From: an uncultured delta proteobacterium
GTDB taxonomy: Bacteria; Desulfobacterota; Binatia; UBA9968
Assembly (NCBI GenBank): GCA_963727625.1
Contig: CAVSHR010000005.1
Coordinates: 1,024,001 to 1,088,000, forward strand
DNA length: 64,000 nt
Direction: 5' to 3'
Shown: piece after piece, positions 946 to 19,794 of the stretch
Position numbering within the stretch: the first letter of the stretch is position 1
Layout: every line of letters begins with the position of its first letter
Program-made: the position numbers and the translations under genes
The notes under the pieces: generated by a model
What the model was told of the DNA's origin: nothing
Database searches by the model: none
Seen by the model: only the letters and a program-made list of their open reading frames with translations

Positions 946-1508
946 ATGAAAAAGCCCTGTCATTTTCTGGCTGTTCTTTTTGCCGTCTTCGTTCTCCTTG
1001 GCGGCGAACCCCAGCGTCTCGCCGCGGTGCAGAACGGTGGTGTCGCGGGGGCGTTAATCAACCAACCCTCGGATTTCATCGCGCTTGCGTCCGGATTCGG
1101 CTCTTTGGGACCCTCAACCGACTACGTCAACAACTTCCACCGGCGCGCGGCGCGACTGGGTGCAAAAGAACCGCCCTCTCGTAGTGCGCTTCCTGCGCGC
1201 CTATGTGAAAACCTGCGAGTTTTTCTACGAACCAAAAACCGGTCAGCCGCCGTGCGGGCGCTTGCCGAACGCACCAAGTCGAACAAAGAGGATGCGGAAA
1301 AAACCGAGCGCTCTATATGAAAACCAAGAAGACCATCCCGCGGGACGGCGGCGTCGACCTGCACGGCGCACGCCAGGTCGCCGAGATTTGGAAAGACTTC
1401 GGCATGCAAAAGATGCCCCCGCCGGTCGATGGCATCATCGATCTGGGCTACCTGGCGGAAGCAAGAAAGCAAATTAAAAAACCGGCGGATCACAAAAATG
1501 GCTGCTAA
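946..1508 (+). pseudogene. Deleted and frameshifted NitT/TauT-type ABC substrate-binding protein
   Basis: Fragments in three frames: GGEPQRLAAVQNGGVAGALINQP / WVQKNRPLVVRFLRAYVK / TIPRDGGVDLHGARQV...IDLGYLAEA. Confidence 0.7.
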
Positions 1509-2934
1509 AGCTGCCGATATAGTTTTCAAAAACGGCTGGGTGGTAACGCCCGGAGGGACAATCGAAGGCGGAGCCGCGGTCGTCAATGGCAAAATCGCCG
1601 CCGTTGGGAGGGACGCGTTTCTGCCCGCCGCCGACCGCGAGATTGATCTCTCCGGGAAATATCTGCTTCCCGGCGCCATCGACCCGGAATGTCATTTAGG
1701 CAGCCATCGCCCGCTCGCCGATGATTTCCAGTCCGAAACGAGAGCGGCCGCAGCGGCTGGGGTGACGACCTGGGGAATGCAGCTGGTGAGCCTGGCCATT
1801 ACCGGCGGAGCGGATAAGGTCAAAGGTCCGTCGGAGATTCCATCGTTTACTCGGGCAATGCCGTTTTACTATGAGGCGTCGCGCGCCGCGGCCATCGATT
1901 TTTTTCTGACGCCGATTCTCGGCACCGACGAGCATGTCGCCGAGATCCCCTACCTCGCCACAGAACACGGAATCAGTTCGTTTAAATTACACTTACAGAT
2001 GCAAGGACCGTGGAAAGCTTCCTGGCCGGCGTACTCGTTTGACGACGGCAGCATCTACGCCGCCTTCGATGCCGTCGCCAAGCTCGGCGCGCCGGCGATC
2101 GCGCTTTTGCATTGTGAAAATTGGGAAATCGCCCGCGTCCTGCAAGGACGTCTGATGGCGGCGGGCCGTACGGACATGGGTGCTTGGGACGATCGCTCAC
2201 CGGCATTCACCGAAGCGGGGCACGCCAGAACCTATCTTTACTACGCCCGCATCGCGGGCTGTCCGATATACATCGTTCATGCGACCACAAAGGAAACGCT
2301 CGCGGAGATTGAAAAAGCGAAGGCCGAGGGCCTGACCGTCTACAGCGAAATCGGCACGCACTATCTCGTGCTGCACAAGGACGCGTGGAAGATTAACGTG
2401 CCGCTGCGTGATCGCTCTACGCATGAGACGCTTTGGCGCGCCCTCGCCTCAGGCACTATCGATTGTATCGGCAGCGACCACGTCGCCCACACCCGAACCC
2501 GCGAATCGATGGAAACCGGCAATGTCTGGACAACGATCAGCGGTTTTCCTTCGCGGGTCGAGGGGATGTTGCCGATGATGCTGAGCGAAGGAGTGAACAA
2601 AGGCCGCATCACGATCGAAAAGTTGGTTCAGATAGCCAGCGAAAATCCCGCCCGGATATTCGGACTCTACCCGAACAAAGGGGCGATTCTCCCCGGCGCC
2701 GATGCCGATTTGATCGTCGTCGACTTGAAACGGCGCGCGAAAATCACCAAGGATCTGATCCACACGATAACGCCATGGTCGCTCTACGAAGGCTGGGAGA
2801 TCACCGGCTGGCCGGTCATGACGCTGGTTCGCGGCAACGTCGTCATGGAGTGGCCCGAGAACGAACCCCGTGCGAGGGTTACCGACAAATCCGTCGGACA
2901 ATATTTGCGACGCCGCGTCGCGGTTTGCTCTTGA
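1498..2934 (+). CDS. Cyclic amidohydrolase (dihydropyrimidinase/allantoinase/dihydroorotase family)
   Basis: LLPGAIDPECH, SFKLH, LHCEN, IYIVH, GSDH, NPARIFGLYPNKG, GADADL motifs. Confidence 0.9.
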   Translation: MAAKAADIVFKNGWVVTPGGTIEGGAAVVNGKIAAVGRDAFLPAADREIDLSGKYLLPGAIDPECHLGSHRPLADDFQSETRAAAAAGVTTWGMQLVSLAITGGADKVKGPSEIPSFTRAMPFYYEASRAAAIDFFLTPILGTDEHVAEIPYLATEHGISSFKLHLQMQGPWKASWPAYSFDDGSIYAAFDAVAKLGAPAIALLHCENWEIARVLQGRLMAAGRTDMGAWDDRSPAFTEAGHARTYLYYARIAGCPIYIVHATTKETLAEIEKAKAEGLTVYSEIGTHYLVLHKDAWKINVPLRDRSTHETLWRALASGTIDCIGSDHVAHTRTRESMETGNVWTTISGFPSRVEGMLPMMLSEGVNKGRITIEKLVQIASENPARIFGLYPNKGAILPGADADLIVVDLKRRAKITKDLIHTITPWSLYEGWEITGWPVMTLVRGNVVMEWPENEPRARVTDKSVGQYLRRRVAVCS

Positions 2935-3791: not shown

Positions 3792-4394
3792 TCAAGCGGG
3801 CTCTTCGGCAGTGGCGCTTCGATCGAGCGGCCGGCGGTCGCGCTCGAGCCGATCCATCAACCATGAAAGCAAGAGTTGGAGGTAGCCGGGTTTGTCCGAC
3901 CTCGGTTCAGTCATACCGGCAACGCAACGCGCGATATGTTCCTCGGCGAAGCGCTCACGCGCGCTCTTGGTGAGATTGGCGGCCTCGGGATTTCCATCCA
4001 TTCGAGCATAGGCCTCTTTCAAGAACAGATATCCGACGAAACCCGCTTCGACCGAAAGGTGGTCGATCGACTCTTCCCGTTGGGGATTAAACGAAAACGC
4101 CTGATAGAAAGCCTGGAGCTCCGCCATCAGGCGGCCCGGATCTTCAAAGCCGCAGTAACTCACTTCGCGCGGCGATAGAGTCCCGCCGGGACCGAAGAGC
4201 CGGTGATAAATTTCTTCACCGACCGGACCGGCTTGCGCCGCACAGGCTAAAAGTTTCTCATCGGTGATTTCACAGCAAAGCGCCGCAATCTTGTCTTTCC
4301 ACTCCGGCGTCGGCCGTTCCAGAAGCAGCGACGCCAACCGCCACGCCGCGGCGCTTGCCAGCTCCTCCGTTTTGATTGCGTAGGGGATGGTCAT
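3792..4394 (-). CDS. TorD/DmsD/NarJ-family molybdoenzyme maturation chaperone
   Basis: AELQAFYQAFSF...EESIDHLSVEAGF (DH motif); last gene of the molybdoenzyme operon. Confidence 0.85.
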   Translation of the reverse strand: MTIPYAIKTEELASAAAWRLASLLLERPTPEWKDKIAALCCEITDEKLLACAAQAGPVGEEIYHRLFGPGGTLSPREVSYCGFEDPGRLMAELQAFYQAFSFNPQREESIDHLSVEAGFVGYLFLKEAYARMDGNPEAANLTKSARERFAEEHIARCVAGMTEPRSDKPGYLQLLLSWLMDRLERDRRPLDRSATAEEPA

Positions 4395-5242
4395 TTTGAG
4401 CTCTCCAGCGCCAGCGGAATCCAGGCGGTGCGCATTTTCTTCGATCCCACCTCTTGGTGCGACCCTTCCCAGACCGCGAACGCGACTTGCGTTCGTCCTC
4501 CCGGCCGAGCCCCGTTCGGCAGCGGCCGAATGAGCACGACGTTCCAGCCCTCTTGTCCGTGTTTTCCATTGCCGGCTGAGATGCTCTTATCGGCGGGACG
4601 GAGGGTGCCCGGACCTTCCGCCACGAGGTCTTGAACCGGAACCGTGCGCGGTCCCGCCATCGGGTTCCCCAAAGCGCGGGCCGGCGCATAGCGCCTTGCC
4701 ATTTCTTGCTGTACGGCGGATCCAAGCTTGAGCGGTGCGGCCTCGAACGGGTAATGGTCGACCTTGGCCCGTGGATAGATTGCGTGGATGTCGTCTTGAC
4801 GACCGTCGGCGACGGCCTGAAACATCGCTGACCAGTAGGTGATCTCGACCGGCTTGCCGTTCTCGCCCATTTGCGGGGCGGGGACATCCGGGGTGGTCAG
4901 GGCGGGCAGCTGAACCGCAACGGCATCCCCGAACCGCCCCGGTCCCGGCATGTCGTCCAGCGTTGCATCGTTCCAACTCAGACGAAAGACGATTTGTTTT
5001 CCGTCGCTGGCCGATTGAACCTTGACGAAGGCGGTCGACGCCTGCATCTCTCTGGGCTCGACCATGTCTTGCAGCAGCAGCTTGGCGTGATGCACGGGGA
5101 TCCGCTCCCAAGCGGCGTCGTCCACCGTGGACGGCAGCTTGGTTGCGAATACCGCCTTGACCTCGGACTCGGAAATCGGCGGTCCTTTTTTCCCGCAGCC
5201 GGAAATAACCGCAGAGATCAGCACAAATACAAAAAGAACCAA
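4391..5242 (-). CDS. nxrC: Gamma/heme-b subunit (EbdC/NxrC-like, cytochrome c-552/DMSO reductase heme-binding), probable lipoprotein
   Basis: FRLSWNDAT, FGDAVAVQLP, PQMG..GKPVEITYW, VAFAVWEGSHQE; hydrophobic leader ending ISGC. Start uncertain: the ORF track extends to 5476 through a repeat element. Confidence 0.8.
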   Translation of the reverse strand: MVLFVFVLISAVISGCGKKGPPISESEVKAVFATKLPSTVDDAAWERIPVHHAKLLLQDMVEPREMQASTAFVKVQSASDGKQIVFRLSWNDATLDDMPGPGRFGDAVAVQLPALTTPDVPAPQMGENGKPVEITYWSAMFQAVADGRQDDIHAIYPRAKVDHYPFEAAPLKLGSAVQQEMARRYAPARALGNPMAGPRTVPVQDLVAEGPGTLRPADKSISAGNGKHGQEGWNVVLIRPLPNGARPGGRTQVAFAVWEGSHQEVGSKKMRTAWIPLALESSK

Positions 5243-5279
5243 TTTTAGGCCACAGGGAACCCTCAGCTTACGAAAACAA

Positions 5280-5410
5280 TTTTCCTCGCCCGCCGGCGCC
5301 AAAGGGCCGGCGTGAGGGTCATATCGGCGGTGATCCACGCTCAGCTCTGATTCTCGCCTGCGAAAGGAGCGGGAGGCAGCTAGTGAAGACCCTCGGGATG
5401 AGAGCAAGGA
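5280..5410. repeat. Degenerate CCCTCAC(C)CCGGCCCT-type hairpin element between nxrB and nxrC
   Basis: Minus strand reads gaccctcacgccggccctttggcgccggcgggcgagg, with a second degenerate arm upstream. Confidence 0.45.
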
Positions 5411-5457
5411 TAATGTTCGGATTGCGTCTATCTTTTGCGCGATCACAGGGATTCTCC

Positions 5458-6585
5458 TCAAGAAACATTGGTGCACGCCACGCCGCGCGCGGCGTCAAAC
5501 GCCGGGCGAATTGTCGTGGGTTCCCGCAGCGGCACGCGCACGATCTCCTTGCCGTTTTCGTCAAAACCGATCACCTCCTCGTCGATCCGCTTCCACTTGG
5601 GGACGATTTTCTCCGTCGACCCGAAAAGCGTGAGAAGACCCGCAAGATCTTTGTCGCGGTGCGCGTTACGGTAGGTTTCCAGCGCCCCGTCAACGTTCGG
5701 CCCGAACATTTGCACGAGAAAATCCCGCGGCACGTTCAGCGGCGGGATGTAATAGACGTTGGGTTCGAGGCCGAACTGCGGGAAGAGCGGCAGCGCGACC
5801 TTTTTCACGTGCACCAGAAAATCGATCGGATTGTCCGGCCGCGCCTGCTCAGGCTTGGAGACCCAGCCGGCGAAGCGGATTTTGCCGATGCAGTTGGCGA
5901 AGCATTGCGGCTGGAGGCCCAGTTCGATCTTGGGAAAACAGCCGATGCACTTCTCCGATGTTCCCGTCATCGTGTTGTAAAAAGTTTTTTTGTACGGGCA
6001 GGCTTTGACGCATTCCTGATAACCGCGGCAGCGTCCCTGATCGATCAGCACGATGCCGTCCTCCTGGCGCTTATAGATCGAGCCGCGCGGGCAGGACGCC
6101 AGGCAAGCGGGATAGGTACAATGGTTGCAGATGCGCGCGAGATAAAAAAACCAGGCGTTGTGCACGCCGGTAAAGTACGCGCCTTTCTCCACGCCGTTGG
6201 CGCAATCGTCTTCCCCGACGTTCGGGTTGGCATAGTCCATCTCCTCGGGCCGCCAGCCAAAAACCCGCTCGCCGGCTTGCGCCGCTTCGAAAATCGTACG
6301 TCCCGCGTAGCGCTCGCCTTCCCAATTCTGCCCGCCGAGTTTTTCCAGGAGATTCACGTCCCAGGCGAGCGGATAGAATCCGTAAGGTTTGGTCTCGACG
6401 TTGTTCCACAGCATGTACTCCTGCCCTTTGCCGCTTGTCCACGTAGTTTTGCACGCGAGCGTACAAGTCTGACAAGCGATGCACTTGTTGGTGTCAAAGA
6501 CCGCGGCGAACTGTCGTTTGGGCCGGCTCTCAGGATACCAGTAGGACATCTCACGGCCGAGCTGCCAGTTGTATACGCGTGCCAT
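5458..6585 (-). CDS. nxrB: Nitrite oxidoreductase / periplasmic nitrate reductase beta (FeS) subunit
   Basis: [13 protein letters not shown]..., [51 protein letters not shown]...C...C. Confidence 0.9.
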
Positions 6586-9500
6586 TATTTTTCTCCACCT
6601 TTCTTGTTTTTGGCGGCGACGAACTTACCCTTGAGATAATTCTTCATGGCGGCGCGCTCGTATTTCGGTCTGAGCCCGAGCGCCGCCGGCCGCCAGATGC
6701 CTTTGCCGTTCATACCGCCCGGCTCGGCTTTGGTGATTTTTACGATCGCTTCGCGCGGCGCGCCCGTGGGGCAATGAACATCGGGGAGGAAACCCTTGTG
6801 GACCGATTGACCGAACAGGTCCTTGCGCACCAGCGAATCGGTCATCCAGGTGGGCTTGAGCCACCCGCGCGTGGCGGCCTGGTGCGAGCCGGATCGGAAC
6901 ATCGCCTGATAGGGGCTGCGCGGATTTTTCGCCAGACCGTCTTCGCGCGTCTCTTGTCCCTCCACGGATCCCGGCGTGGCGCCGTACATATTGAACCACA
7001 TGCGGGTCACCCCGCGCGGCGTGCCCGGGTAATAGCGGGCGCGGCACAGCAGGCGCGCGAACTTGTAATCCTTTTCATTTTTCTGCCAGCCCCGGAACGG
7101 TCGGTCCGAAGGATCGGAATCGATCCAGACATAATCGCCATCGTCAATCCCGAGAGATTTGGCGTCCTCCGGATGAATATCGACGTAGCCTTCGGCGGCG
7201 AACGGCTGGCGCTTGTCATGACGATAAATATCGCCGAACGGCCCGAAGAGCATCGCCACCATGTCCGTGTCGACCGGCATCGTGTGCGCGCCATGGCGGT
7301 ATTTCGGCGTGTGAAAAACAAATTTGTAACCGTCCTTCGCCAGCGGGTGCGAGGTCTTTCTCGCTTCGTTCCAGCTCATGACGACATTGCGCCCCTGGCG
7401 AACATCGTTGGAAAGGTCGTCTTTTTTGACGCCGTAGCTTTCGGGCCCCCTGGCTTTGATGAACGGATGGCTTGGAGCGATGATCACGTTGGGTTCGTAA
7501 AAAGTCGAATCGATGGGCTCGCGATGAACCGGCAAGTTTTCTCCCGCATCGATGAACTCGTCCTCTTCCCGATAAAATTCCAAACGTCCGGTCTTGGTAT
7601 ACCAGGGTCGGGAGTCATAGACCTGCTCGTAGCCGACGGCCTTGGGATTGGTCCGGTTCATCATGAGGGCGGGAATTCCCTTCTTCGCCTTTTCCTCCAA
7701 GTCGGCGATGTTGTATCCCTTGGTGAGTGAAGAGTGGTCGAGAATGCGCTGCAGGTAAACCTCCACGTTTCCCGCGTCGACGAACTTCCACATATCGGCG
7801 AAGCGCTGATCGCCGGTCCGTTGCGCCAGCTTTTTTCCGACCAGCGCCAGGTATTCGATGTCGCCGCGGGTATCGAACGGCCGCGGCTGAGGCGTGCGGG
7901 GAAAGATCGTCAGAAACGGGTTGGTCACCGACGCGCTCATGTCGGGATATTTGAGCTCGGACCAACTATCAACCGCAAAAACCACGTCCGCCCACTCACA
8001 GGAAGTCGACCACCACCATTCCTGGACCGCGATCATTTCGATTTTCGGCAACATGTTGACGACCGTGTTGTAATGCCACTTGACGTTTCCCAATATCGAG
8101 TTGGCGTTGGCGAACCAGAGCGATTTGGTCGGCGCCGGCATGTGCGTTTTGCCGGTGATCATCGTTTTGCCCATCTTGAGCGGGTGGTCTTCGTGATTGT
8201 AATAATGCGCCGACTCGGCCTTCCAGAACTGCTTCGGCCGCGCCGGCTTGGCGCCGTCGAGCTCGAGATCGAACGGGTTCTCATTGATGTATTGCGGCAC
8301 GCCGTTGAACATCGCCACCCGGTAATTTCCCGCGTAGGAGCCGATGTTGCCGGCGAGCTTGCCGATGTTGCCGGTGAGCGCGGCCAGGAGAAACTGGGTT
8401 CGGTCCTTATTGTCGTTGTTGAAGAACTGATTCGGCCCCATGCCGATGGCGAACAAAGTCGTTCCCGGCGTTTTTGCAATTTCCGCTGCCAGGCTTTCCA
8501 CCGCTTCCGCTGGCGCCCAGGTAATCTCCTCTGTGGTCTTCGGATCGAAGTGCTTCACGTATTCGAGGATCACATCGAAAATCGGCCGGCAGAAGATTTT
8601 CTTGCCGTCTTTGAGCGTCACTTCAACCGAACCTTCCAGGAGCGGGTCGGCCACCGTCGAGTATTTGCCCACGTGATCGCGGGCGAGCGCTTCAGGCTTG
8701 GAGGTCTGGCGATTCCACCAGACGTAGTCTCCCCAGGCTTTTCTCAATTCCTCGGGAAGCAGCATGTCGGTCTGAGCGCCCGGCGGCGGTACTTTGTCCC
8801 CTTTCACCACGGTCTTCGTCTGGTTTTTCAGGATATGGAGCTGGCCGCCGAAGACCTCCTCGGCGCGGAGCAATTTCAAATTATCGGCCCGTACCAGCAG
8901 CGGCAGATCGGTGAAGCGCCGCACGTAGTCGCCATCGTAAAGCTTTTTCTCCATGATGACGTTGCATAGGCCGAGCGCCAGCGCCGGGGTCGTGCCGGGA
9001 CGAACGACGATGACCTCGTCGCCTTTCGGGCTCGTCGACGAGTATTCGCATGCGATCACCACGACCTTGGTGCCTTTCAGGCGCGCTTCGGTCAGCCAAT
9101 GGGTGTCGGGCATTTTCGTCGTCACCCAATTCATGCCCCAGACAATCACCATACGCGCCAACTCCACGGCGTGAAGATCGAACTCGACGGTCTGCTGCCC
9201 GGTCACCATGGGATGACCGGGGGGCAGATCGGTATGCCAGGAGTAGTTATCGAAGCCGCGTCCGCCGATCGCCTCTTCGGGTTTAACGCCGCGCAGCTTG
9301 TGGTCGAGGAGAGCCATGGAATTCGCCAGCCGGTACAGGCCAAAAACTCGGGTCATCCCCAAGAGCGGCATGCCGCCGCGGAATTTGAGCACCTGGGTGC
9401 CCGCTCCCTTGGTGGCCTGAACGACCTGCTCGTCGTAACCCTGGTGCAGCAGGAGCTTTTGGCCTTTCTCGCCGCTGTACGTCGTGGCGACGTTGATGAG

Positions 9501-10040
9501 CGCCGCCGCGACGATATCCGCCGCCTGCTCATGGGTGACCCGCAGCCAGTCATCCCGCGCTCGATCGAAATATTCCTTCGGCGGGCGTCCGTCTTTGTCC
9601 CGCGGGAACCCTTTGTCCACCCAGGCCTTGAAACCCTTGCGCACCATCGGATAGCGCACGCGCCGGTCTCCGTAAAATCGCCGCGTGAGCGCCAGTCCCT
9701 TCTGACACACCCGCGGGTCCCAGCGATGACTGACCTTCGTGCCGTAGAGATCGCTGGCTTCCCCATATTTCATGGTCGGACCGATGCGCGTGATCACGCC
9801 GTCGCGCACATAAGCGTTCAAGATGCAGTTATGGGTATCGTTGGGGGCGCACAGAAAGGTAAAGCTCGAGTCTGATTTCCAAAGATCGCGATAGGTTTTT
9901 TCCCAGTCGCGGTTTGGATAGGCCGCCAGTGGATTTTCAATCGCCTGAAGCCCCCAGGCGTCGCGCACCGAGAGCGCAAACGCGGAAAAGCCAGCGGCGC
10001 CGACCCATTCTAAGAATTCACGGCGGTTGATATTTTTCAT
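6585..10040 (-). CDS. nxrA: Tat-exported type II DMSO-reductase-family molybdoenzyme alpha subunit (NxrA/periplasmic NarG-like)
   Basis: Start [10 protein letters not shown] (twin-Arg) at 10040; C-x3-D-x3-C-x39-C FS0 motif; [12 protein letters not shown] with Mo-ligand Asp; 1151 aa. Confidence 0.9.
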
Positions 10041-11710
10041 TTTCTTGTCCCCCAGGTCCGTAGGAATGCAACGATGGATGAAATTTCCGAGTCCGTCAGG
10101 GCTCCTTGCACCGTTGAGCTCGTACCGAAACCGCCCATGGAGGTTCCGGCGCGGCCGCTTTGAATCGTCTTCAAAAGATAGGTATCCGTGGCGAGATCGA
10201 GAAAGACGCGATTGTTGAGCGCCGGCCCTTCCTTGCCCTCGCCGCGCTCGCCATGGCATCGGGCGCAGGCCGAGGCAAACAAACGCTGCCCTTCGGCCGC
10301 ATTGCCTTCAATCCAGCGGCGCGGTTTAGCATCCCCTTCAAAGGCGATCCCGCCGAGATCGCGAATGTAAGCGACGAGCCGAACGATCTCTGCATCGCGC
10401 AGCCCGCCTTCCAACTCTCCCCAAGCCGGCATGCGTCGCCCCGGCCGCCCCCGCTTGATCTGCTCGCGCAAGAAATCGTCGGAAACCAGACGCAGAAAAT
10501 CCCGGTTTCCGATAGCGGGAAACGGGGCTAAACCGGGGTAGCGCATGCCTTCGCCTCCGGCGCCGTGACAGGCCGCGCAGAAAGTTCCATAGAGCGTCGC
10601 CCCGTCCGTAGCGAACTCGCGCAAACCGAAGCGCTCGGCGCGAATGCGGTCTTTAGGCCAAAGCGCTTCGTAAAAGTTCCGCCGCCGCAAAGACATCATA
10701 TACAAGGTCAGCCGATCGATCTGTTGGTCGCCCAATCCGAGCTCGGGCATTGCCGAACCGCGCACCACCGAAGCGGGAGCGCGGAAATGATCCTTGAGCC
10801 AGTTGGCGAGCGTGCGTGCTCCTTTGACTGAGCTGAAATCGAGCTGTCCGGGATCCTTGTTACCCTCGGCGGTCAAATCCGGCCCGTCATCCCCGCCTAC
10901 GCCGCGAACTTTATGGCAGCCGCGACAGCCGAGAGTATGAAACAGCGCTTTGGCTTCCACTAAACCCGGGGCGCCGACACGAGAGCGAAGATATTCATCC
11001 AGCTCGGCTCGTTCCGCCGCTGAAAGCTCGCCAAAGGCCGAAGTCCATGGTCCGAAAGCTGCCTTTTTCTTTTCGCCGAGGTGAACATCGTACCAATCAG
11101 CCTTAAATCCGGTCGCGCCTACCCGCGAGAGATCCGGTCCCTCCCCACCTCCGGCACCGCCAGGACGCAGCGTTCCGCCCCTTCCGTCCAGCTTGTGGCA
11201 CGCGAGGCAATCGGCTTGTTCGAAAACTCGTTTGCCGTTTTCGAGACGAGCGAGGTTGGGAACGCTCAGGTGGGTGTGGCATCCGCCACACCCGGCATAG
11301 AGATATTTTTTTTCCAGCATCGGCTCCGGCCAATACGGCACCGCGCCATGCGCCGCCGCCGTTTCGGTCGCCCTTCCCTGGCCGCTGTGACAAACGGTGC
11401 AGCCGTAAGCGGCCGGATCGTGGACCACATCCGGATGGCGCCCGAAGAGTCGATCGCCTTCGATGCCGTTTTCACCCGGCGCCATCCCGACGTGACAACT
11501 CACGCACCGGTCCGTCGCTTCCAGCTCACGGCTGACAATCTGCCGCAGTTGAATCGTGAAGGCGTCGGCCTGGGACGCCGGCAGCTCCGCTTGTATGCGC
11601 CGCTGGATCACGCGCCAGTCGCGGAAGAAATTCTCGCTGACGGCGGCCCAAACCAGCACCGCCAGCGCCGCCAGGCTTGACCACAGGAGCAGATGTTTGT
11701 TCGCCTTCAT
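10037..11710 (-). CDS. Membrane-anchored multiheme cytochrome c (7 CxxCH)
   Basis: CVSCH, CTVCH, CGGCH, CLACH, CRGCH, CAACH, CARCH; N-terminal TM helix; ATGA overlap with nxrA. Confidence 0.92.
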
Positions 11711-11767
11711 CTTCCAGCGTTGACCTGAATCTGCAATTTGAGATTCGTCATCTGAGATCCCGCAGAG

Positions 11768-13336
11768 CTAGTGTCCCGGCCACTGGGAGTGAGACCAATA
11801 AAACTCCCAGTTCGGTCCGCGGAAATAGGTTCCGATCACTGTCAGCACCACAAAGCCGCACATAAAGCAGGTGAACAAAGCCAATGCGCCGGCGCGTGTC
11901 GAGTTGTACTTTTTCAGGCAGCGAAGCGAATAGCAGGCGTAGATCAAGGTCAATAGCGTGCCGGGGTTAATGAACGTGATTATGAGCTGCGGCGCGCCGA
12001 GCCACCATTGGCGAATCCAACCGAATCGAATCACCAAGGCTTCGATAACCACCACCACCGTCAGCCCGAAGATGGCCGCGCCGGCCACCAAGCGCCCGCC
12101 TCCGGCACCGCCGAACCAGGTTCCGGTCCCGTCTGTTTCACGATCCAGATAAGGGATCAATCCGAGGCCGATGAGCACGATCATCGGAATGCCGACGCCG
12201 CCCATGAAAGCTGAATGCGAGACTAATTCCTGCAGCCCGAGAAAATACCAGGGCGCTTTGGCGGGATTTTCGGGTATTGCCGGATTGGCCACTTCTTTCA
12301 GCGGCGCGTCGAGAAAAATCGCCAGAATCACCGAGAGCGCGACCGTCAACATGAAGACGGCGGCTTCGCCATATAGCAGGTGCGGCATGGAAGGCAGGGT
12401 GTGCTCCGGCCCGTCTCCGACCGCGGCTGTTCGTCCCTTGACGATGGCTGCCAAGCTGTAGGTCTTCTGCGGCGCTTCCGTAAAGACCGGATAGAGCTCC
12501 GCCGGCCCGGCCCCGAGCCGCCGGTCCGCGTCGGCAGGTTTTGCCAGGCCGCCATCCTTGCGGATGCGCCAGAAGTGCACGGCCATGAGCGTGACCAAAA
12601 GCAGGGGCAGAATCATCACATGAAAGAGATAAAAACGTATGAGCGCCTCTTCACCGACCTCTTCGGAGCCGAGAAGGATTAGTTTTTGCAGCCCGCCGAT
12701 GTCGAACCACGACGTGATCCCGAGTGCGTCCGTGACTTCGCGCGGCGACTGCGCGATGTTCGCGCCGATGGTAATCGCCCAGTAGGCCAACTGGTCCCAG
12801 GGAAGCAGGTAGCCGGTAAAGGAAAGACCGAGCGTCAGCACTAAAAGCCCCATGCCGATCAGCCAGTTGAACTCGCGCGGCGCTCGATAAGACGCGGTGT
12901 AAAACACCCGCGCCATGTGCAGCAGAACCACCACCACCATCATGTTTCCCGACCAGCGGTGGATGTTGCGAATGAATCGTCCGGTCGGCACGACAAAGTG
13001 AATGTCTTTAATCGAAAAATAAGCGACGTCCGGGTAAGGCTTGTAGTAGAACATGAGCAGCACGCCGGTGATCACGAGAACCAAAAAGCAAGAAAGCGCC
13101 GCAATCCCGAGCCCCCAGGTCGTTGACCAGCGGAGACTCCAGCGGTGCGTGCGCACCGGATGGAGATGGAGAAAGACGTTGCCAAACACAAAAGTCGAGC
13201 GGGTCCGGTCCGACGCGGGCTTCCCGCTCCGAAACATCGTCTCGGTCAAACGGCGCGGCGCCAGTTTTAGATTTTCAGTGAATCGGCCTAGTGCCGACCC
13301 GCTCGGGGCCTCCGCCCTTGAGGTTAGCGGATTCAT
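11768..13336 (-). CDS. Cytochrome b of a Rieske/cytb complex (b6 fused to subunit IV)
   Basis: Start MNPLTS at 13336; IHRW, LHMARVF, GYLLPWDQLAYWA, RFYLFHV, VHFW, KAPWYF. Confidence 0.92.
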   Translation of the reverse strand: MNPLTSRAEAPSGSALGRFTENLKLAPRRLTETMFRSGKPASDRTRSTFVFGNVFLHLHPVRTHRWSLRWSTTWGLGIAALSCFLVLVITGVLLMFYYKPYPDVAYFSIKDIHFVVPTGRFIRNIHRWSGNMMVVVVLLHMARVFYTASYRAPREFNWLIGMGLLVLTLGLSFTGYLLPWDQLAYWAITIGANIAQSPREVTDALGITSWFDIGGLQKLILLGSEEVGEEALIRFYLFHVMILPLLLVTLMAVHFWRIRKDGGLAKPADADRRLGAGPAELYPVFTEAPQKTYSLAAIVKGRTAAVGDGPEHTLPSMPHLLYGEAAVFMLTVALSVILAIFLDAPLKEVANPAIPENPAKAPWYFLGLQELVSHSAFMGGVGIPMIVLIGLGLIPYLDRETDGTGTWFGGAGGGRLVAGAAIFGLTVVVVIEALVIRFGWIRQWWLGAPQLIITFINPGTLLTLIYACYSLRCLKKYNSTRAGALALFTCFMCGFVVLTVIGTYFRGPNWEFYWSHSQWPGH

Positions 13337-13830
13337 ACCGTCACCGTTGTTCCAGCGGCGACGTTGTTCCCTTCGTCGATCATGAAATGGTCGCCGCTCA
13401 AATGTTTCACCTCGAGCCACGGCAGTCCCTTCGGCGCGGGTCCTTTGATCACCGAGCCATCCTTTGCGAATTTCGAGCCGTGACACGGGCAGTCGAAACC
13501 CGTTTCGGTCGGCTTGACGATGCAGCCCAGATGCGTGCAGACCCGGGAAATCGCGTGCACCGCGTTGCCCTCTTTTATAATCGCTACCGACCGGCCGGCG
13601 GGGAGGTAGGGTTGGCCCGCGAGCAAGGATGGCGGGAGCGTGACTTTGAATTTCTTCGACGGAGAAGGAAGGACCGCAGCTTTCGGCAGCCGCATCGCGC
13701 CGAGAAAGCCGAAGAGCAGCGCGGCTGACGCAGACCACCACGCCGCGAGACCGAGGAAATCCCTGCGTGGCATCGCCTCGGGATCCAATCTGGACCGGAA
13801 CGTCGATGGGGTCTTGGCTTCGGTTGTCAT
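13333..13830 (-). CDS. Rieske 2Fe-2S protein
   Basis: PRRDFL Tat-like anchor; CTHLGC and CPCHGS; start 13830. Confidence 0.95.
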   Translation of the reverse strand: MTTEAKTPSTFRSRLDPEAMPRRDFLGLAAWWSASAALLFGFLGAMRLPKAAVLPSPSKKFKVTLPPSLLAGQPYLPAGRSVAIIKEGNAVHAISRVCTHLGCIVKPTETGFDCPCHGSKFAKDGSVIKGPAPKGLPWLEVKHLSGDHFMIDEGNNVAAGTTVTV

Positions 13831-15794
13831 GCAGCCCTCCACTCGGTTTGAAAGCTCACCCGCTCCATGGCGATGGCATCGGCGGGACAACGCTCCACGC
13901 AAAGCGCGCAGCGAATACAGCGGTCTTCGTCTTTCAGAATCGCCGAGTTATTTTCCAGATCGGCGTCAGCGCCGAGTTGAGATTCAAAAAGCTCGCTAAC
14001 CTCCGCGGCCGGGTTCAGTGCGGAGAGAGGGATGATCTTCAAGCACAGCGTCGGACAAACATCGGCGCACCCGCCGCAGAGAATACAGCGATTGCCGTCG
14101 AAGACCGGGGTCACGCCGCAATCGAGACAGCGCGACGCCTCGCGCATCGCTTCGTCCTCGGCAAGGCGTTTTTCTACCGTCAAAGTCGGGTCCGCCAAGC
14201 GCTCCGCAGGCGATGCCATCGGCAATTCTACGCGGCGGATCCGCTCGTAACCGAGCTCGCGCCGATAACGGTCGAGCCGCACGAAACTCATCAACGTCTC
14301 GGGTTGAAGGGCGCGGCCGGTCACGTATTGGTACACCGAGCGAGCCGCTTTCTTTCCCGAGGCCACCGCATCGATCAAGAGCCTGGTCCCGTGCGCCAGA
14401 TCGCCAACCACGAAAACGCCTTCGGCCGTAGTCATGAGCGTTGTCGGATCCACTTTTGGCCAGCCCGGCCGGAATTGCTCAATATCGGCGCCGCCCTCGT
14501 CCAAAAACGAAAGGTCCGGCGCTTGGCCGGCGGCGATCAGAATCGAGTCGCAGTCAAGCACCTGTCTGTTTTCCTCTTCGAATGACGGCGCAAACCGGCG
14601 TTGATCATCGTAAACCCGGACGCAGCGTTTGATTTCCAGGCCGATGACGGTCCCTTGGGGGTCACGCCGAATCGCCACCGGCCCCCAGCCGGAGAGCCGC
14701 TCGATGCCTTCCTCTTCCCCTTCGCGAATTTCCACGGTGTCCGCCGGCATCTCCTCCAAAGTTTCAAGAGAGACCAGACGGACGCGCCGCGTGCCGGTGA
14801 GGCGGGCGGCCATACGCGCGGTGTCGTATGCCGCTTGACGGACAACCGTTCGCGCGACGTCATACGCGACATTGCCACCGCCGATCACGACCACATCGGC
14901 CCCAAGCGGCAGGTTCTCCGCCAGCGCAGCGGCGCGCAGGAAGTCGACGCCGCCGTAAACGCCCGGCCCCGGCTCACCCGGAAGACCCAAGGCTCGTGGA
15001 CGCTTTGCACCCACGGCCATGACTACCGCGGCGAATTCATCGCGTAACGACTGGAATGAAAGGTCACGGCCAATTTTGGTCTTGCAGCGGATTTCGACGC
15101 CGAGGGCTTCAATGACCGCGACTTCACGCCGGATCAGCTCGCGTGGGAGACGGTATTCCGGAACCCCCACCGCCAGCATTCCGGCGGCCAACGGTTCCAT
15201 CTCGAACACGACGGGTGTGAGTCCCAGCAGGGCGAGGTCGTGGGCCGCGCTCAGCCCCGCCGGACCCGACCCGATGATCGCGACCCGCTGCCCCTCGGCG
15301 GGGACTAAAGCTCCTTGCGTAGCGGCACGTAGCAAGAACGCCATTTCCTCGGCGTCCGCCGCAACTTTCGGGACATAGCTCCTGAGGCTTTGCAAAATTT
15401 CTTCCGGAGCCCGCGCTTCGGCTCCGATGGATTCGCAAACAAAGCGCTTCAAGGCGCGAATCGAGATGGGCCGGTCGGTCGCCACGAATGAGCCATCGGC
15501 ATCGGTCCGAGGAATTTTCCCGCGCCGACACCCGGTCTCACAGGGCGCGCCGCAGATTCGGCCGCAGATCGATGCGAAGGGATTCGGGCCTCTGGCGATA
15601 AGGTAGGCCTTGTCAAATTCCCCGTCGGCGATCGCGCGCACATAGCCCCGCGCATCCGTGTGCACTGGACAAGCGACTTGGCAGGCGATCAGATCCTTAT
15701 GGTGATCGCCTCTAGGAAGCTCGGCCCGAATCGGCGTTCGCATCATTGCACCATCGGTTTTCGTCGTCGCCGGCGTCGGCGTCGGCTGAATCAC
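13827..15794 (-). CDS. FAD-dependent NAD(P) oxidoreductase with N- and C-terminal 4Fe-4S clusters (GltD/NfnB/DsrL-like)
   Basis: CQVACP, CGRICGAPCETGC, GSGPAG, GGGNVA, CLDC, CILCGGCADVCP, CIRCALCVERCP. Confidence 0.9.
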   Translation of the reverse strand: MIQPTPTPATTKTDGAMMRTPIRAELPRGDHHKDLIACQVACPVHTDARGYVRAIADGEFDKAYLIARGPNPFASICGRICGAPCETGCRRGKIPRTDADGSFVATDRPISIRALKRFVCESIGAEARAPEEILQSLRSYVPKVAADAEEMAFLLRAATQGALVPAEGQRVAIIGSGPAGLSAAHDLALLGLTPVVFEMEPLAAGMLAVGVPEYRLPRELIRREVAVIEALGVEIRCKTKIGRDLSFQSLRDEFAAVVMAVGAKRPRALGLPGEPGPGVYGGVDFLRAAALAENLPLGADVVVIGGGNVAYDVARTVVRQAAYDTARMAARLTGTRRVRLVSLETLEEMPADTVEIREGEEEGIERLSGWGPVAIRRDPQGTVIGLEIKRCVRVYDDQRRFAPSFEEENRQVLDCDSILIAAGQAPDLSFLDEGGADIEQFRPGWPKVDPTTLMTTAEGVFVVGDLAHGTRLLIDAVASGKKAARSVYQYVTGRALQPETLMSFVRLDRYRRELGYERIRRVELPMASPAERLADPTLTVEKRLAEDEAMREASRCLDCGVTPVFDGNRCILCGGCADVCPTLCLKIIPLSALNPAAEVSELFESQLGADADLENNSAILKDEDRCIRCALCVERCPADAIAMERVSFQTEWRAA

Positions 15795-15810
15795 TGAAAA
15801 ACCCGCCCTG

Positions 15811-16224
15811 TCATCTGCCCGAACTGCTCGCCAAGTCGGCCAGCGTTGTTTGTTCCATCAGTTCGCCGATGACCCGTTGTCTCACTTTCTTCCACTTAAA
15901 ATGGAGCGCGCAGGGATTTGCTTCCGCGCACCGCTCGCTCCAAAAAATGCACCGCTCGAAAAGATCAGACCCTTCTATTGCGAGAAAAACTTCTTTCAGC
16001 TTGAGGTCCTTGGGTCTTCGCGCCAGGGCATAGCCACGAACGGCCCCTCGGGAGGAAACCAGGATTCCGCCCCGGGTGAGTTTTTGAAAGATTTTCGCGA
16101 GGAAACTGACCGGTATACCGCGCGACTTCGCGACGTCGCGAAGTAGCATCACCGTCCCAAAAGGCTTGGTGGCCAGCGCGATGAGTCCCTCGATCGCGTA
16201 TTCGCTCTCTCGTCCGAGTCTCAT
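15811..16224 (-). CDS. Rrf2-family FeS transcriptional regulator
   Basis: SEYAI, FLAKIFQKL, SSRGAVRGY, CIFWSERCAEANPCALH. Confidence 0.92.
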   Translation of the reverse strand: MRLGRESEYAIEGLIALATKPFGTVMLLRDVAKSRGIPVSFLAKIFQKLTRGGILVSSRGAVRGYALARRPKDLKLKEVFLAIEGSDLFERCIFWSERCAEANPCALHFKWKKVRQRVIGELMEQTTLADLASSSGR

Positions 16225-16232
16225 GTGCAAGA

Positions 16233-16259
16233 GTCAAAAGACAAATTTGATCTTTTGAC
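16233..16259. promoter_or_regulatory. Perfect 9-9-9 inverted repeat, candidate Rrf2 operator
   Basis: GTCAAAAGA-caaatttga-TCTTTTGAC immediately upstream of the Rrf2 ATG. Confidence 0.7.
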
Positions 16260-16270
16260 ACCAACCCGAC

Positions 16271-16285
16271 GCAAACCGCATACCA
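16271..16285 (-). promoter_or_regulatory. sigma54 (-24/-12) promoter of the Rrf2-nxr operon
   Basis: Minus strand TGGTATGCGGTTTGC, correct GG-N10-GC spacing. Confidence 0.6.
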
Positions 16286-16897: not shown

Positions 16898-17971
16898 TCA
16901 CAACCCAAACAACACCTTCGGATTATCATAGGTAATCTTCTCATACTGCCGCGGCGTGATGCCGCCCTGATTTTTCAAGTTACGCAGCGCTTCGATCTCT
17001 GTGGACTGGTCGTTGTGACCATAGTCGGTGCCGATAACGAGATTTTCTTCGCCGGAGTATTTGAGCACGTAGTCGACATCGTCGTCGGTTTGGCACGAGA
17101 CGAACTGGCGATATTCTTTGAGCGGGTTATCCGGCAGGGCGCGGTTGATCGCGCCCCAGCGGCGCTGGAAATCTTTGACGACGTAGGGAATCCACTGGGC
17201 GGCGGCTTCGGCCCAGTGAAAGCGCAGCTTGGGAAAGAGCGTCGGCACCTCGCTCATGACGACCGAATGAAACGCGCCGATCACCGGGACGCGAAACTTC
17301 CAAAAGCTGCCGCCGCCGTTGTATTGCGAGACGAGATCGATGACGTACGGGTTGGCGTTGCCGACGTGGACGCCGACGGCGAGGTTGAGCCGGCTCATCT
17401 TTTCGTACAAGGGATAGAAATACGGGTCGGTGATCATGCGCTGGCCTTCGATGCCGCGCATGAAGACGCCGCAGGCGCCGTGCTCGCCGCAGAACTTTAG
17501 CTCTTCCAGCGCCGCGCTCATGTCGAGCAGCGGCAGGACACAAATCCAGCGCAGCCGACCTTGTCCTTGAGCGTGAATGTCGGCGAGCCAGCGGTTGTAG
17601 CCTTTTGAAATCGGGATTTCCCACTCGGGTTTGTCGGCGATCTGCTCGATGAACATGGTCGGGTAGAGCACCTGAACATCGATGCCGAGCTCGTCCATGT
17701 GCTTGATCCGCGCCGCCACGTTTTCCATCTCGCGGGTTTCTTGCGAAGTGTTCATGTCGCGTCCTGTGCGCCTTGCCACGTCGGCCACATCCCGGGCGGT
17801 GAGAACGACGCGCACCAGGCCGCGGATTTTCCCGTCGATGTACCAGTATTCGCCGCCGCCTTCGCCGCGCGGTTTGACGATCAGCGGGCGATATTTTTGA
17901 TCGGCCTTGTCGATGTAATCCCAGGTGCGCTCGGATTCGACGACGTGAGCATCAGCATCGATAGTCGGCAT
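16898..17971 (-). CDS. Amidohydrolase family protein (amidohydro_2)
   Basis: IDADAHVVE, MDELGIDVQVLYPT, GVHVG, GTDYGHND. Confidence 0.9.
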   Translation of the reverse strand: MPTIDADAHVVESERTWDYIDKADQKYRPLIVKPRGEGGGEYWYIDGKIRGLVRVVLTARDVADVARRTGRDMNTSQETREMENVAARIKHMDELGIDVQVLYPTMFIEQIADKPEWEIPISKGYNRWLADIHAQGQGRLRWICVLPLLDMSAALEELKFCGEHGACGVFMRGIEGQRMITDPYFYPLYEKMSRLNLAVGVHVGNANPYVIDLVSQYNGGGSFWKFRVPVIGAFHSVVMSEVPTLFPKLRFHWAEAAAQWIPYVVKDFQRRWGAINRALPDNPLKEYRQFVSCQTDDDVDYVLKYSGEENLVIGTDYGHNDQSTEIEALRNLKNQGGITPRQYEKITYDNPKVLFGL

Positions 17972-18801: not shown

Positions 18802-19794
18802 TTACGTTTTCATTTGCGAGAACACTTTCTTGGCATTTCCTTCAGTGATCTTCAGGCGGTCTTCCTCGCTCAGCCAGTCAATCGATTGGAAAATCGGCAC
18901 CAGGTCTTCGAAGTTGCGGCCGGTCTTGGGGTCGATGGCGTTGACCGCGCCGAACATCTCGGTGGCGAACAAAATGTTGTCGGCGCCGACGCGTTTGATC
19001 AGCAGCTCCATCGACTCCTTGTCGTAAATCGCCATGTCCCAGTAGACCCGCCGCGCTGCCTCCTCGAACGGCTCGAGCCCTTCCTTCACGTGCATGCCGC
19101 GTTGGCGATTCCACTGATAGGGAATGGCGCCGCCGCCGTGCGGAATTATGATTTTCAATTTGGGAAAATCCTTGAACACGCGCGACTTGAGCAATTCGAC
19201 CGCGGCCGAGTTATGGTGCGCGATGTAGTAAGCATTGGTGAGATGCATCGCCGGATTGAGCGAGGCGCTCGCGTGCACGGTGCACGGCACATCGAGCTCG
19301 ACCATCTTTTCCCAGAGCGGATACCACCACTCGCTGCCCATCGACGGCGTCAAAGGCTCTTTCCCGCCGGCGACGTCGGGATTGACGTTGCAGCCGATGA
19401 AGCCGAGATCTTTGATGCAGCGGTCGAGCTCGTCGACCCATTCCTTGGGCCCGACGCCCGGCGACTGCGGCAGCTGGCAAACCGGTGAAATTTTGTCGGG
19501 AAGGAGCTTGGCGACGCGCGCGATCAGATCATTGCACGCCTCGCTCCAATACCGGCTCACCAGCGGCGAGCCGAAGTGATGCCCCATCGCCCCCGCCTGC
19601 GGTGAGAACAGCAAACGGTCGATGCCCGATTCTTCCATGCGTTTGAGCTGGCCCTGCATGGAGCGCGCCAGCTCTTCATCGCTAATATTGAGCCTGGCCT
19701 TCACCGGCTTGGCGAGGTTGGTGATTTGCTGGCCGCGATAGGCCTGCAGCTGCGCCGGCGCGGTGGTGAAATGAGTATGTGCGTCGATGATCAT
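18802..19794 (-). CDS. ligJ: 4-oxalomesaconate hydratase-like amidohydrolase
   Basis: MIIDAHTHFTTAP, MGHH, CQLPQSPGV, IIPHGGGAIPY, NILFATEMFGAV. Confidence 0.75.
   Translation of the reverse strand: MIIDAHTHFTTAPAQLQAYRGQQITNLAKPVKARLNISDEELARSMQGQLKRMEESGIDRLLFSPQAGAMGHHFGSPLVSRYWSEACNDLIARVAKLLPDKISPVCQLPQSPGVGPKEWVDELDRCIKDLGFIGCNVNPDVAGGKEPLTPSMGSEWWYPLWEKMVELDVPCTVHASASLNPAMHLTNAYYIAHHNSAAVELLKSRVFKDFPKLKIIIPHGGGAIPYQWNRQRGMHVKEGLEPFEEAARRVYWDMAIYDKESMELLIKRVGADNILFATEMFGAVNAIDPKTGRNFEDLVPIFQSIDWLSEEDRLKITEGNAKKVFSQMKT

What the first reader, a model, noticed from the sequence alone, without database searches (positions are those of the whole stretch)
3792..16285. One operon joining a periplasmic NXR/pNar, a Rieske/cytochrome b complex, a heptaheme cytochrome and an NAD(P)-linked flavo-FeS oxidoreductase
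Seen: nine co-oriented genes, several joined by overlapping stop/start codons. Known: haloarchaeal pNar is linked to Rieske/cyt b genes, and anammox bacteria have Rieske/cytb complexes with an NAD(P) oxidoreductase subunit proposed to bifurcate electrons. Inference: this operon combines both features. It could form a chain NAD(P)(H) <-> quinone <-> cytochrome c <-> nitrate/nitrite, giving either Q-cycle-coupled nitrate respiration or nitrite oxidation with reverse electron flow, in a lineage that otherwise looks heterotrophic.
Basis: partly seen in the sequence, partly recalled or inferred. Interest (0 to 1): 0.82.

Follow-up and report, generated by a model that had tools for sequence, protein, structure and literature searches.

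The report
NAD-linked cytochrome bc–nitrate reductase cassette
This is a real, tightly conserved gene cassette that wires an anammox-like quinol-oxidising complex with a cytoplasmic NAD(H) enzyme to a nitrate-reducing enzyme outside the membrane in mostly heterotrophic bacteria, and it could make a long-proposed but unproven way of splitting electrons testable.

Summary
The nine genes are real and five of eight junctions overlap. The eight-gene core is a conserved cassette: 50 of 52 informative relatives keep the order, across several phyla. The front half matches the anammox NAD(P)-linked Rieske/cytochrome b complexes at the residues of their modelled electron path. It differs in three ways: cytochrome b is fused to subunit IV, the heme-cN cysteine is missing, and the flavoprotein carries an NAD-type motif (SLE, not YRR). 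The molybdoenzyme belongs to a sister clade of the anammox/Nitrospira NXRs. Sister copies of the front module sit before a NapA-like enzyme (8 of 17 loci) or a Ser/Clr-type enzyme (1), which argues for reduction. Hosts carry complex I and mostly lack carbon-fixation markers. Nitrate respiration is therefore likely; nitrite oxidation with reverse electron flow is not supported. My best mechanism (0.45) is quinol bifurcation to nitrate and NAD+; the main rival is NADH feeding the complex. It needs menaquinone, and this genome's quinone is unresolved. The bc–Nar adjacency was noted in Thermogutta terrifontis; I found no description of the flavoprotein link. The scan found this cassette before on other genomes (seven notes).

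The parts
16271..16285 (-). sigma-54-type -24/-12 promoter-like motif (GG-N10-GC; consensus recalled)
   Evidence: 61 nt upstream of the rrf2 ATG; a pattern defined after seeing this site hits 7 of 46 upstream regions and 0 of 552 coding windows, also L150 and L151; rpoN present
16233..16259 (.). perfect 9-bp inverted repeat with 9-nt spacer at the predicted transcription start; candidate operator
   Evidence: read from sequence; nearly identical in L151; function inferred
15811..16224 (-). Rrf2-family regulator with a three-Cys/His motif (probably Fe-S sensing)
   Evidence: PF02082 and TIGR00738 over cut-off; motif kept in 9 of 10 homologues printed
13827..15746 (-). cytoplasmic FAD/Fe-S NAD(H) oxidoreductase, NfnA/GltD/DsrL-like, about four Fe-S clusters
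   Evidence: Fer4_20 + Pyr_redox_2 + C-terminal dicluster; best solved relatives NfnABC and StnABC; Lys100, Arg619 and the cluster cysteines invariant in 52 sequences; SLE in place of YRR in 50 of 52
13333..13830 (-). Tat-type Rieske [2Fe-2S] protein, Ser/Phe potential pair
   Evidence: RRDFL signal and CPCHGSKF motif; Ser 60 of 60, Phe 59 of 60; best solved match is Kuenenia entry 9rk4, narrowly ahead of b6f Rieske proteins
11768..13336 (-). cytochrome b6-type subunit fused to subunit IV, with extra C-terminal helices
   Evidence: four heme His, His57, His64, Arg259, Lys260, Glu324 and the PAKAPWY Qo motif invariant; Gly75 replaces the heme-cN Cys (53 sequences; alignment to b6); model pLDDT 70.6 with bc-type fold
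10037..11710 (-). membrane-anchored heptaheme cytochrome c
   Evidence: 7 CxxCH; N-terminal hydrophobic stretch; C7-like and CcoP-like domains
6585..10040 (-). Tat-exported Mo-bisPGD alpha subunit, sister clade of anammox/Nitrospira NXR
   Evidence: best solved match 7b04 at 854 bits; Cys64, Asn67, Asp68, Cys72, Cys112, Asp271 match Kuenenia C67, N70, D71, C75, C115, D275; tree
5458..6585 (-). Fe-S beta subunit (NxrB/NarH-like)
   Evidence: TIGR03478, below cut-off
4391..5242 (-). heme-b gamma subunit (EbdC/NxrC-like), probable lipoprotein; start codon uncertain
   Evidence: PF09459; Met131 and Lys275 in 64 of 64, lipobox Cys in 56 of 64 (numbered from 5260)
3792..4394 (-). TorD/NarJ-type maturation chaperone
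   Evidence: PF02613 over cut-off

Best explanation
A respiratory machine that oxidises membrane quinol at the Qo site of a dimeric Rieske/cytochrome b complex. One electron goes by Rieske, heptaheme cytochrome c, gamma heme b and the beta Fe-S chain to Mo, reducing nitrate to nitrite in the periplasm (about 0.8 for this half). The other goes through the b hemes and a His57/His57' heme at the dimer interface to the flavoprotein docked on the cytoplasmic side, and reduces NAD+. In heterotrophs the NADH would be re-oxidised by complex I, so part of the quinol-to-nitrate energy gap that a plain Q-cycle wastes is recovered. Shown: genes, motifs, linkage, host gene content. Inferred: complex formation, the extra heme, NAD specificity, substrate, and both directions.
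For: Linkage: 50 of 52 loci; in 251 class genomes the same 21 hold both alpha at >=72% and flavoprotein at >=67%, 15 of them adjacent on one contig. The residues of the modelled Kuenenia path (10.1101/2025.06.25.661457: His43/His62, Arg247, Arg550, Lys for the fourth ligand, Glu at heme cN) map to invariant His57, Arg259, Arg619, Lys100, Glu324. Reductive direction: 17 of 17 sister modules fetched keep the same four genes; 8 precede a NapA-like enzyme with NapG/NapH-like genes and 1 a TIGR03479 enzyme. T. terrifontis grows on nitrate and has the same order Rieske-cyt b-cyt c-alpha-beta-gamma-chaperone (PMC5673643). NuoL over cut-off in 46 of 51 hosts, NuoF in 44 of 51, so a second NADH entry pumping fewer charges would be redundant. 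With menaquinone the reaction is -13 to -19 kJ/mol against 170-140 mV. The one host with acetyl-CoA synthase is also the one with the NADP-type YRR motif (n=1).
Against: The anammox mechanism itself is an unproven proposal resting on AlphaFold3 models and Rieske potentials. His57 and Lys100 are not specific: His57 occurs in this genome's other b6-type cyt b, which has no such flavoprotein beside it, and Lys100 in an anammox flavoprotein with no cyt b beside it. Loss of the heme-cN Cys is usual for fused cyt b (PMC5600118), so it does not show a dead Qi site. The reaction is uphill with demethylmenaquinone or ubiquinone (+22 to +52 kJ/mol), and 17 of 51 hosts, this one included, show neither MqnA/D nor MenD. 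Ser/Phe Rieske proteins are usually put at +200-230 mV (PMC3509893), which leaves little driving force, although the Ser/Phe Kustd1480 measured +335 mV. Heterotrophs have no evident lack of NADH. In a small tree the flavoproteins form their own clade, apart from the anammox ones. The NapA-like partner scores far below the NapA cut-offs (277 of 904 bits).
Confidence: 0.45

Rival explanations
1. Same machine, opposite flavoprotein direction: NADH is oxidised and its electrons help reduce quinone at the cytoplasmic site (like FNR on b6f), making a self-contained NADH:nitrate oxidoreductase that needs no complex I.
For: NAD-type SLE motif fits catabolic NADH in heterotrophs (PMC7596348); downhill with any quinone, so it also fits the 17 of 51 hosts without a recognised menaquinone pathway; Glu324 is invariant and His319 nearly so near the cytoplasmic site; the cassette is spread over many phyla like a self-sufficient unit.
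Against: It moves about two charges per NADH against five to six for complex I plus Q-cycle (own reckoning from textbook stoichiometry), and nearly all hosts have complex I; Hauser et al. reject this direction for the anammox complexes on the same ground.
Confidence: 0.27
2. An ordinary Q-cycle bc complex feeds a periplasmic nitrate reductase (as proposed for haloarchaea); the flavoprotein is co-regulated but acts apart from it or only primes it, and the bc part may also serve aerobic respiration.
For: T. terrifontis authors list these genes as its complex III for aerobic respiration too and the genes are transcribed on both sugars tested; 47 of 51 hosts have heme-copper-family enzymes.
Against: The flavoprotein gene abuts the Rieske gene in all but one arrangement seen and stays with the module when the terminal enzyme changes; this genome has three other Rieske/cyt b loci.
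Confidence: 0.13
3. Nitrite oxidation: the Mo enzyme runs as an NXR and the cassette supplies reverse electron flow to NAD+.
For: Active-site and FS0 residues equal those of the bidirectional Kuenenia NXR; a sister clade of NXR includes the nitrite oxidiser Nitrotoga (PMC6050957); oxidases are common in hosts.
Against: One strong RuBisCO-family hit, one acetyl-CoA synthase and no strong ATP-citrate-lyase hit in 51 hosts, none in this genome (one search had no positive control); reversing the modelled path consumes NADH; sister modules serve reductase-type enzymes; this genome holds a separate anammox/Nitrospira-clade NXR.
Confidence: 0.08
4. The Mo enzyme reduces another oxyanion (chlorate, selenate, iodate) rather than nitrate.
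For: The clade is uncharacterised; a sister module is joined to a Ser/Clr-type enzyme (L130).
Against: Asn67 and Asp271 as in NXR; much closer to NXR (854 bits) than to Pcr or Ebd (177, 158 bits); the matching cluster is the only Nar described in nitrate-respiring T. terrifontis.
Confidence: 0.07

Closest known systems
Kuenenia stuttgartiensis Rieske/cytochrome b complexes Kustd1480-1485 and Kuste4569-4574
   Same: Rieske + b6-type cyt b + subunit IV + multiheme c + NfnA-like flavoprotein; PAKAPWY Qo motif; His for the predicted extra heme; Lys at the FAD-proximal cluster; cyt b 44-50% and flavoprotein 33-39% identical to anammox-type loci
   Different: cyt b fused to subunit IV; no heme-cN Cys; SLE instead of YRR (9 of 9 anammox-type proteins have YRR); partner is a Mo enzyme, not an HAO-like protein; gene order differs; hosts are not autotrophs
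Periplasmic NXR of anammox/Nitrospira (PDB 7b04) and its sister clade (Nitrotoga NXR, Hydrogenobacter periplasmic Nar)
   Same: Tat export, 3Cys/Asp FS0, Asn and Asp at the Mo site, Met/Lys heme-b gamma subunit
   Different: separate clade (37-41% to anammox-type alphas, 49% to a Natronococcus occultus enzyme); hard-wired to its own bc module; membership of the Nitrotoga clade not tested, no reference sequence held
Thermogutta terrifontis THTE_1506-1512 (PMC5673643)
   Same: same order of seven genes; role of complex III in nitrate respiration suggested; a Thermoguttaceae genome carries the full cassette (L073)
   Different: described as cytoplasmic NarGHI; flavoprotein not mentioned; no biochemistry; I could not compare its sequences
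Haloarchaeal Rieske/cytb-pNar cluster
   Same: quinol oxidation by a Rieske/cyt b complex feeding a nitrate reductase on the outer side
   Different: cyt b related to Actinobacteria/Thermus, Gly/Phe Rieske, no cytochrome c (PMC3509893); no flavoprotein in the gene order given there
DsrL / NfnA / GltD flavoproteins
   Same: N-terminal dicluster, FAD and NAD(P) domains, C-terminal dicluster as in DsrL
   Different: partner is a membrane cyt b rather than DsrAB, NfnB/C or glutamate synthase alpha

Membership tests
Anammox-type NAD(P)-linked Rieske/cyt b complex | Rieske, b6-type cyt b, subunit IV, multiheme c and NfnA-like flavoprotein in one cluster | tested here: met
Anammox-type NAD(P)-linked Rieske/cyt b complex | interface His and basic residues of the predicted extra heme; Lys at the proximal cluster | tested here: met
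   His57, Arg259, Lys260, Arg619, Lys100 invariant; His57 and Lys100 are not specific to such complexes
Anammox-type NAD(P)-linked Rieske/cyt b complex | split cyt b with covalent heme cN (Cys motif) | tested here: not met
   fused, Gly75 invariant in 53 sequences; WCMG in 9 of 9 anammox-type proteins
Anammox-type NAD(P)-linked Rieske/cyt b complex | NADP-type YRR motif | tested here: not met
   SLE 50, ALE 1, YRR 1 of 52
Anammox-type NAD(P)-linked Rieske/cyt b complex | flavoprotein orthologous to Kuste4570/Kustd1483 | tested here: inconclusive
   small midpoint-rooted tree without outgroup separates them
Anammox-type NAD(P)-linked Rieske/cyt b complex | physical complex and NAD(P)+ reduction | not testable with these tools
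   needs biochemistry; the complex predictor was not available
Anammox/Nitrospira periplasmic NXR clade | Tat signal, 3Cys/Asp FS0, Asn70 and Asp275 equivalents, Met/Lys gamma heme | tested here: met
Anammox/Nitrospira periplasmic NXR clade | branches within that clade (about 60% identity) | tested here: not met
   sister clade, support 0.97; 854 bits to 7b04 against 1599 for this genome's second enzyme
Nitrite oxidoreductase (function) | nitrite-oxidising physiology with carbon fixation | tested here: not met
   markers only: no RuBisCO, ATP-citrate lyase or acetyl-CoA synthase found in G000, 98% complete; 3-hydroxypropionate routes and citryl-CoA variants not searched; activity untested
Haloarchaeal Rieske/cytb-pNar | actinobacterial/Thermus-type cyt b, Gly/Phe Rieske, no cytochrome c | tested here: not met
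   b6-type cyt b, Ser/Phe, heptaheme c against PMC3509893
Cytoplasmic NarGHI | no export signal, integral NarI anchor | tested here: not met
   Tat motif and EB_dh-type gamma; narG model 141 bits against cut-off 1084

The most novel reading that the evidence does not exclude
A widespread, plug-in 'NADH-regenerating complex III' of heterotrophs: quinol bifurcation sends one electron to an interchangeable periplasmic reductase (NXR-sister, NapA-like or Ser/Clr-type) and the other to NAD+, which complex I re-oxidises, raising the charge yield per nitrate towards the thermodynamic limit (about 9-11 charges). It would be the first tractable case of the mechanism proposed for anammox bacteria.
Probability: 0.35. 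Interest if true: 0.88.

Novelty: new variant of a known kind. Interest (0 to 1): 0.68.

Why it matters
NAD(P)+ reduction by a Rieske/cytochrome b complex is a long-standing proposal that has not been shown, because anammox bacteria cannot be studied genetically. This cassette carries the same parts in one operon, in hundreds of genomes and probably in a cultured nitrate respirer, with a built-in acceptor. It also warns that these nxrA-like genes in soil and groundwater genomes probably mark nitrate reducers rather than nitrite oxidisers.

Tried and rejected
Complex prediction of the cyt b dimer with the flavoprotein's C-terminal domain: tool not available, nothing folded, so binding is untested. 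Sigma-70 scan: no site. Search for a named T. terrifontis protein: none listed, so identity with its cluster rests on the paper's gene order. Loss of heme cN as proof of a dead Qi site: rejected (PMC5600118). His57 and Lys100 as specific markers: rejected. Quinone of this genome: unresolved; MqnL over cut-off, MqnP-like and MenA-like below, no MqnA/D or MenD, the MqnC-like hit is CofH, no UbiB. NirK and NrfA not found in G000; the NosZ search had no positive control; NirS not searched. PF18582 is not specific for anammox; I chose 5 of 91 matching genomes with twin 809-826-residue frames, and residue numbering in one matched the paper. L035 was dropped as a near duplicate of L030 before the 51-genome counts. 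Literature searches for the full architecture listed no paper describing it; passages read in PMC3903129, PMC6896113, PMC10732223, PMC5317091 and PMC13386864 did not describe it either. The library lacks most subscription papers (Kartal 2013, de Almeida 2016, Kameya 2017 not read), and the bioRxiv supplement of Hauser et al. could not be seen.
Full report
Observation. The nine minus-strand genes are as described. Five of eight junctions overlap and the other gaps are 57, 64 and about 200 nt. The genome is 6.6 Mb, 98% complete, 6% contaminated; the nearest loci carry the record titles Candidatus Binatia or Deltaproteobacteria, with one Chloroflexota-labelled record. A sigma-54-type motif and an inverted repeat lie upstream of the regulator; the pattern was set after seeing this site and the control windows were coding, so this is a lead.

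Conservation. A scan of the species collection found 421 relatives of the alpha subunit and returned the best 79 loci, from Binatia, Acidobacteriota, Myxococcota, Eisenbacteria, Planctomycetota and others. Of 52 with at least 5.8 kb upstream, 50 carry flavoprotein-Rieske-cyt b-cyt c in order; 55 of 56 with enough downstream DNA carry beta and gamma. The exceptions are L005, which has an assembly gap at the start of alpha and a 70% flavoprotein elsewhere in the genome, and L078, a 61% alpha. In one sample of 251 class genomes, the 21 with alpha at 72% or more are the 21 with flavoprotein at 67% or more; 15 pairs are adjacent, six lie on separate contigs (only 2-4 candidates per genome were scored, and kin are not independent). 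Of 11 genomes with a full-length alpha at 53-62%, I fetched eight: one has the cassette rearranged (L085), seven have no front module within 20 kb.

Molybdoenzyme. It has a Tat signal and the FS0 and Mo-site residues of Kuenenia NXR (PMC8387239, passages), and the gamma subunit keeps Met and Lys heme ligands. It branches as sister to the anammox-type enzymes, together with a Natronococcus occultus protein. Kitzinger et al. (PMC6050957, one section and passages read, tree not seen) describe a sister clade holding the Nitrotoga NXR and known nitrate reductases; I could not test whether it is the same clade. Sequence alone does not give the direction. This genome also has a true anammox/Nitrospira-clade enzyme on contig C3.

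Front module. Hauser et al. (10.1101/2025.06.25.661457, whole main text) model two Kuenenia complexes with an NfnABC-like flavoprotein, a Lys in place of a fourth cluster ligand, a new b heme between two His43 (or His62), nearby Arg247 and Arg511 or Arg550, and Glu-ligated heme cN. In loci from five anammox-like genomes the numbering matches, which maps these residues to His57, Arg259, Glu324 of the window's cyt b and Lys100, Arg619 of its flavoprotein, all invariant. The flavoprotein's best solved relatives are likewise NfnABC and StnABC. Differences: fused cyt b, Gly for the heme-cN Cys, and SLE for YRR. In DsrL, measured enzymes with YRR use NADP(H) and those without use NAD(H) (PMC7596348, passages), so NAD(H) is predicted. 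Two cautions: His57 and Lys100 also occur outside such complexes, and loss of the Cys commonly accompanies fusion (PMC5600118, passages).

Direction. One search listed 26 more distant flavoproteins (43-57%); I fetched 17 and all 17 head the same four-gene module. Eight precede a 900-residue Tat enzyme followed by NapG- and NapH-like genes; the one scanned is closest to periplasmic nitrate reductases but below their cut-offs. One precedes a TIGR03479 Ser/Clr-type enzyme, and eight have no recognised terminal enzyme. Nap-family enzymes are reductases (own knowledge). T. terrifontis respires nitrate and has Rieske, cyt b, cyt c, alpha, beta, gamma, chaperone as THTE_1512-1506 (PMC5673643, passages and supplement rows); the authors called the enzyme cytoplasmic and did not name THTE_1513. 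Among 51 cassette genomes (this one and 50 others, completeness not given), NuoL is over cut-off in 46 and NuoF in 44, heme-copper-family enzymes (which include NO reductases) are in 47, RuBisCO-family hits in 9 with one strong, acetyl-CoA synthase in 1, and no strong ATP-citrate lyase. The one with acetyl-CoA synthase is the one YRR carrier, L046.

Mechanism. Outward flow from quinol to nitrate is the well-supported half. For the flavoprotein, NAD+ reduction is feasible with menaquinone (-13 to -19 kJ/mol) and not with demethylmenaquinone or ubiquinone (standard potentials recalled, menaquinone from Hauser et al.). Thirty-four of 51 hosts show a menaquinone marker; 17, including this genome, show neither, and here only the late futalosine steps were found. 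NADH oxidation into the complex is always downhill but yields fewer charges than the complex I that nearly all hosts have. I put bifurcation at 0.45, NADH feed at 0.27, an ordinary Q-cycle with a loosely linked flavoprotein at 0.13, nitrite oxidation at 0.08 and another oxyanion at 0.07. No expression or binding data were obtained.

Novelty. The parts are known families, the bc-Nar adjacency has been noted once in print, and a Rieske/cyt b pair inside a Nap cluster was noted in Caldithrix abyssi (PMC5317091, passages). Eight searches of the held library listed no description of the flavoprotein-bc-reductase cassette. Seven earlier notes of this scan report it on other genomes; they agree with my reading but are not independent evidence. 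It works like the anammox complexes but fails two of their features, so I file it as a new variant.

Noticed in passing
G000 C3:204781-212170 (L080): A second periplasmic NXR of the anammox/Nitrospira clade with beta, chaperone and a diheme-c/EB_dh fused gamma, in a genome without the carbon-fixation markers searched; 40-42% hits of this kind are common in the family.
   Followed up: partly
L131:12394-15123 and L132-L135, L137, L138, L147: Divergent 900-residue NapA-like Tat enzyme with two NapG-like and one NapH-like gene, behind the same flavoprotein-Rieske-cyt b module and a decaheme cytochrome c.
   Followed up: partly
L140-L146: A third group of the module with a pentaheme cytochrome c and unannotated upstream monoheme and 450-550-residue proteins; no terminal enzyme recognised.
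   Followed up: partly
L046 (G252): Cassette whose front module is divergent, has the NADP-type YRR motif and sits in the only host with acetyl-CoA synthase; a natural test of cofactor switching.
   Followed up: partly
G000 C12:518228-526566 (L081): Split b6-type Rieske/cyt b complex with the heme-cN Cys and an octaheme cytochrome c, grouping with the anammox cyt b proteins; an FprA-like flavoprotein gene lies two genes downstream.
   Followed up: partly
G000 C8:2564-4917 (L125): Only the late futalosine-pathway genes (MqnP-like, MqnL) were found; early menaquinone steps and UbiB were not, as in other Binatia-labelled hosts. The quinone of this lineage is an open question.
   Followed up: partly
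G000 C9:72000-92000 and 425000-445000: Two complex I loci; a NuoF over cut-off was found only at the second.
   Followed up: no
window 11768-13336: Cytochrome b has further conserved histidines (59, 64, 113, 319 and the C-terminal 522) with no assigned role.
   Followed up: no
window 1429-2934, 16898-17971, 18802-19794: Flanking amidohydrolase-family genes (the third by eye only); not conserved parts of the cassette as far as examined.
   Followed up: no
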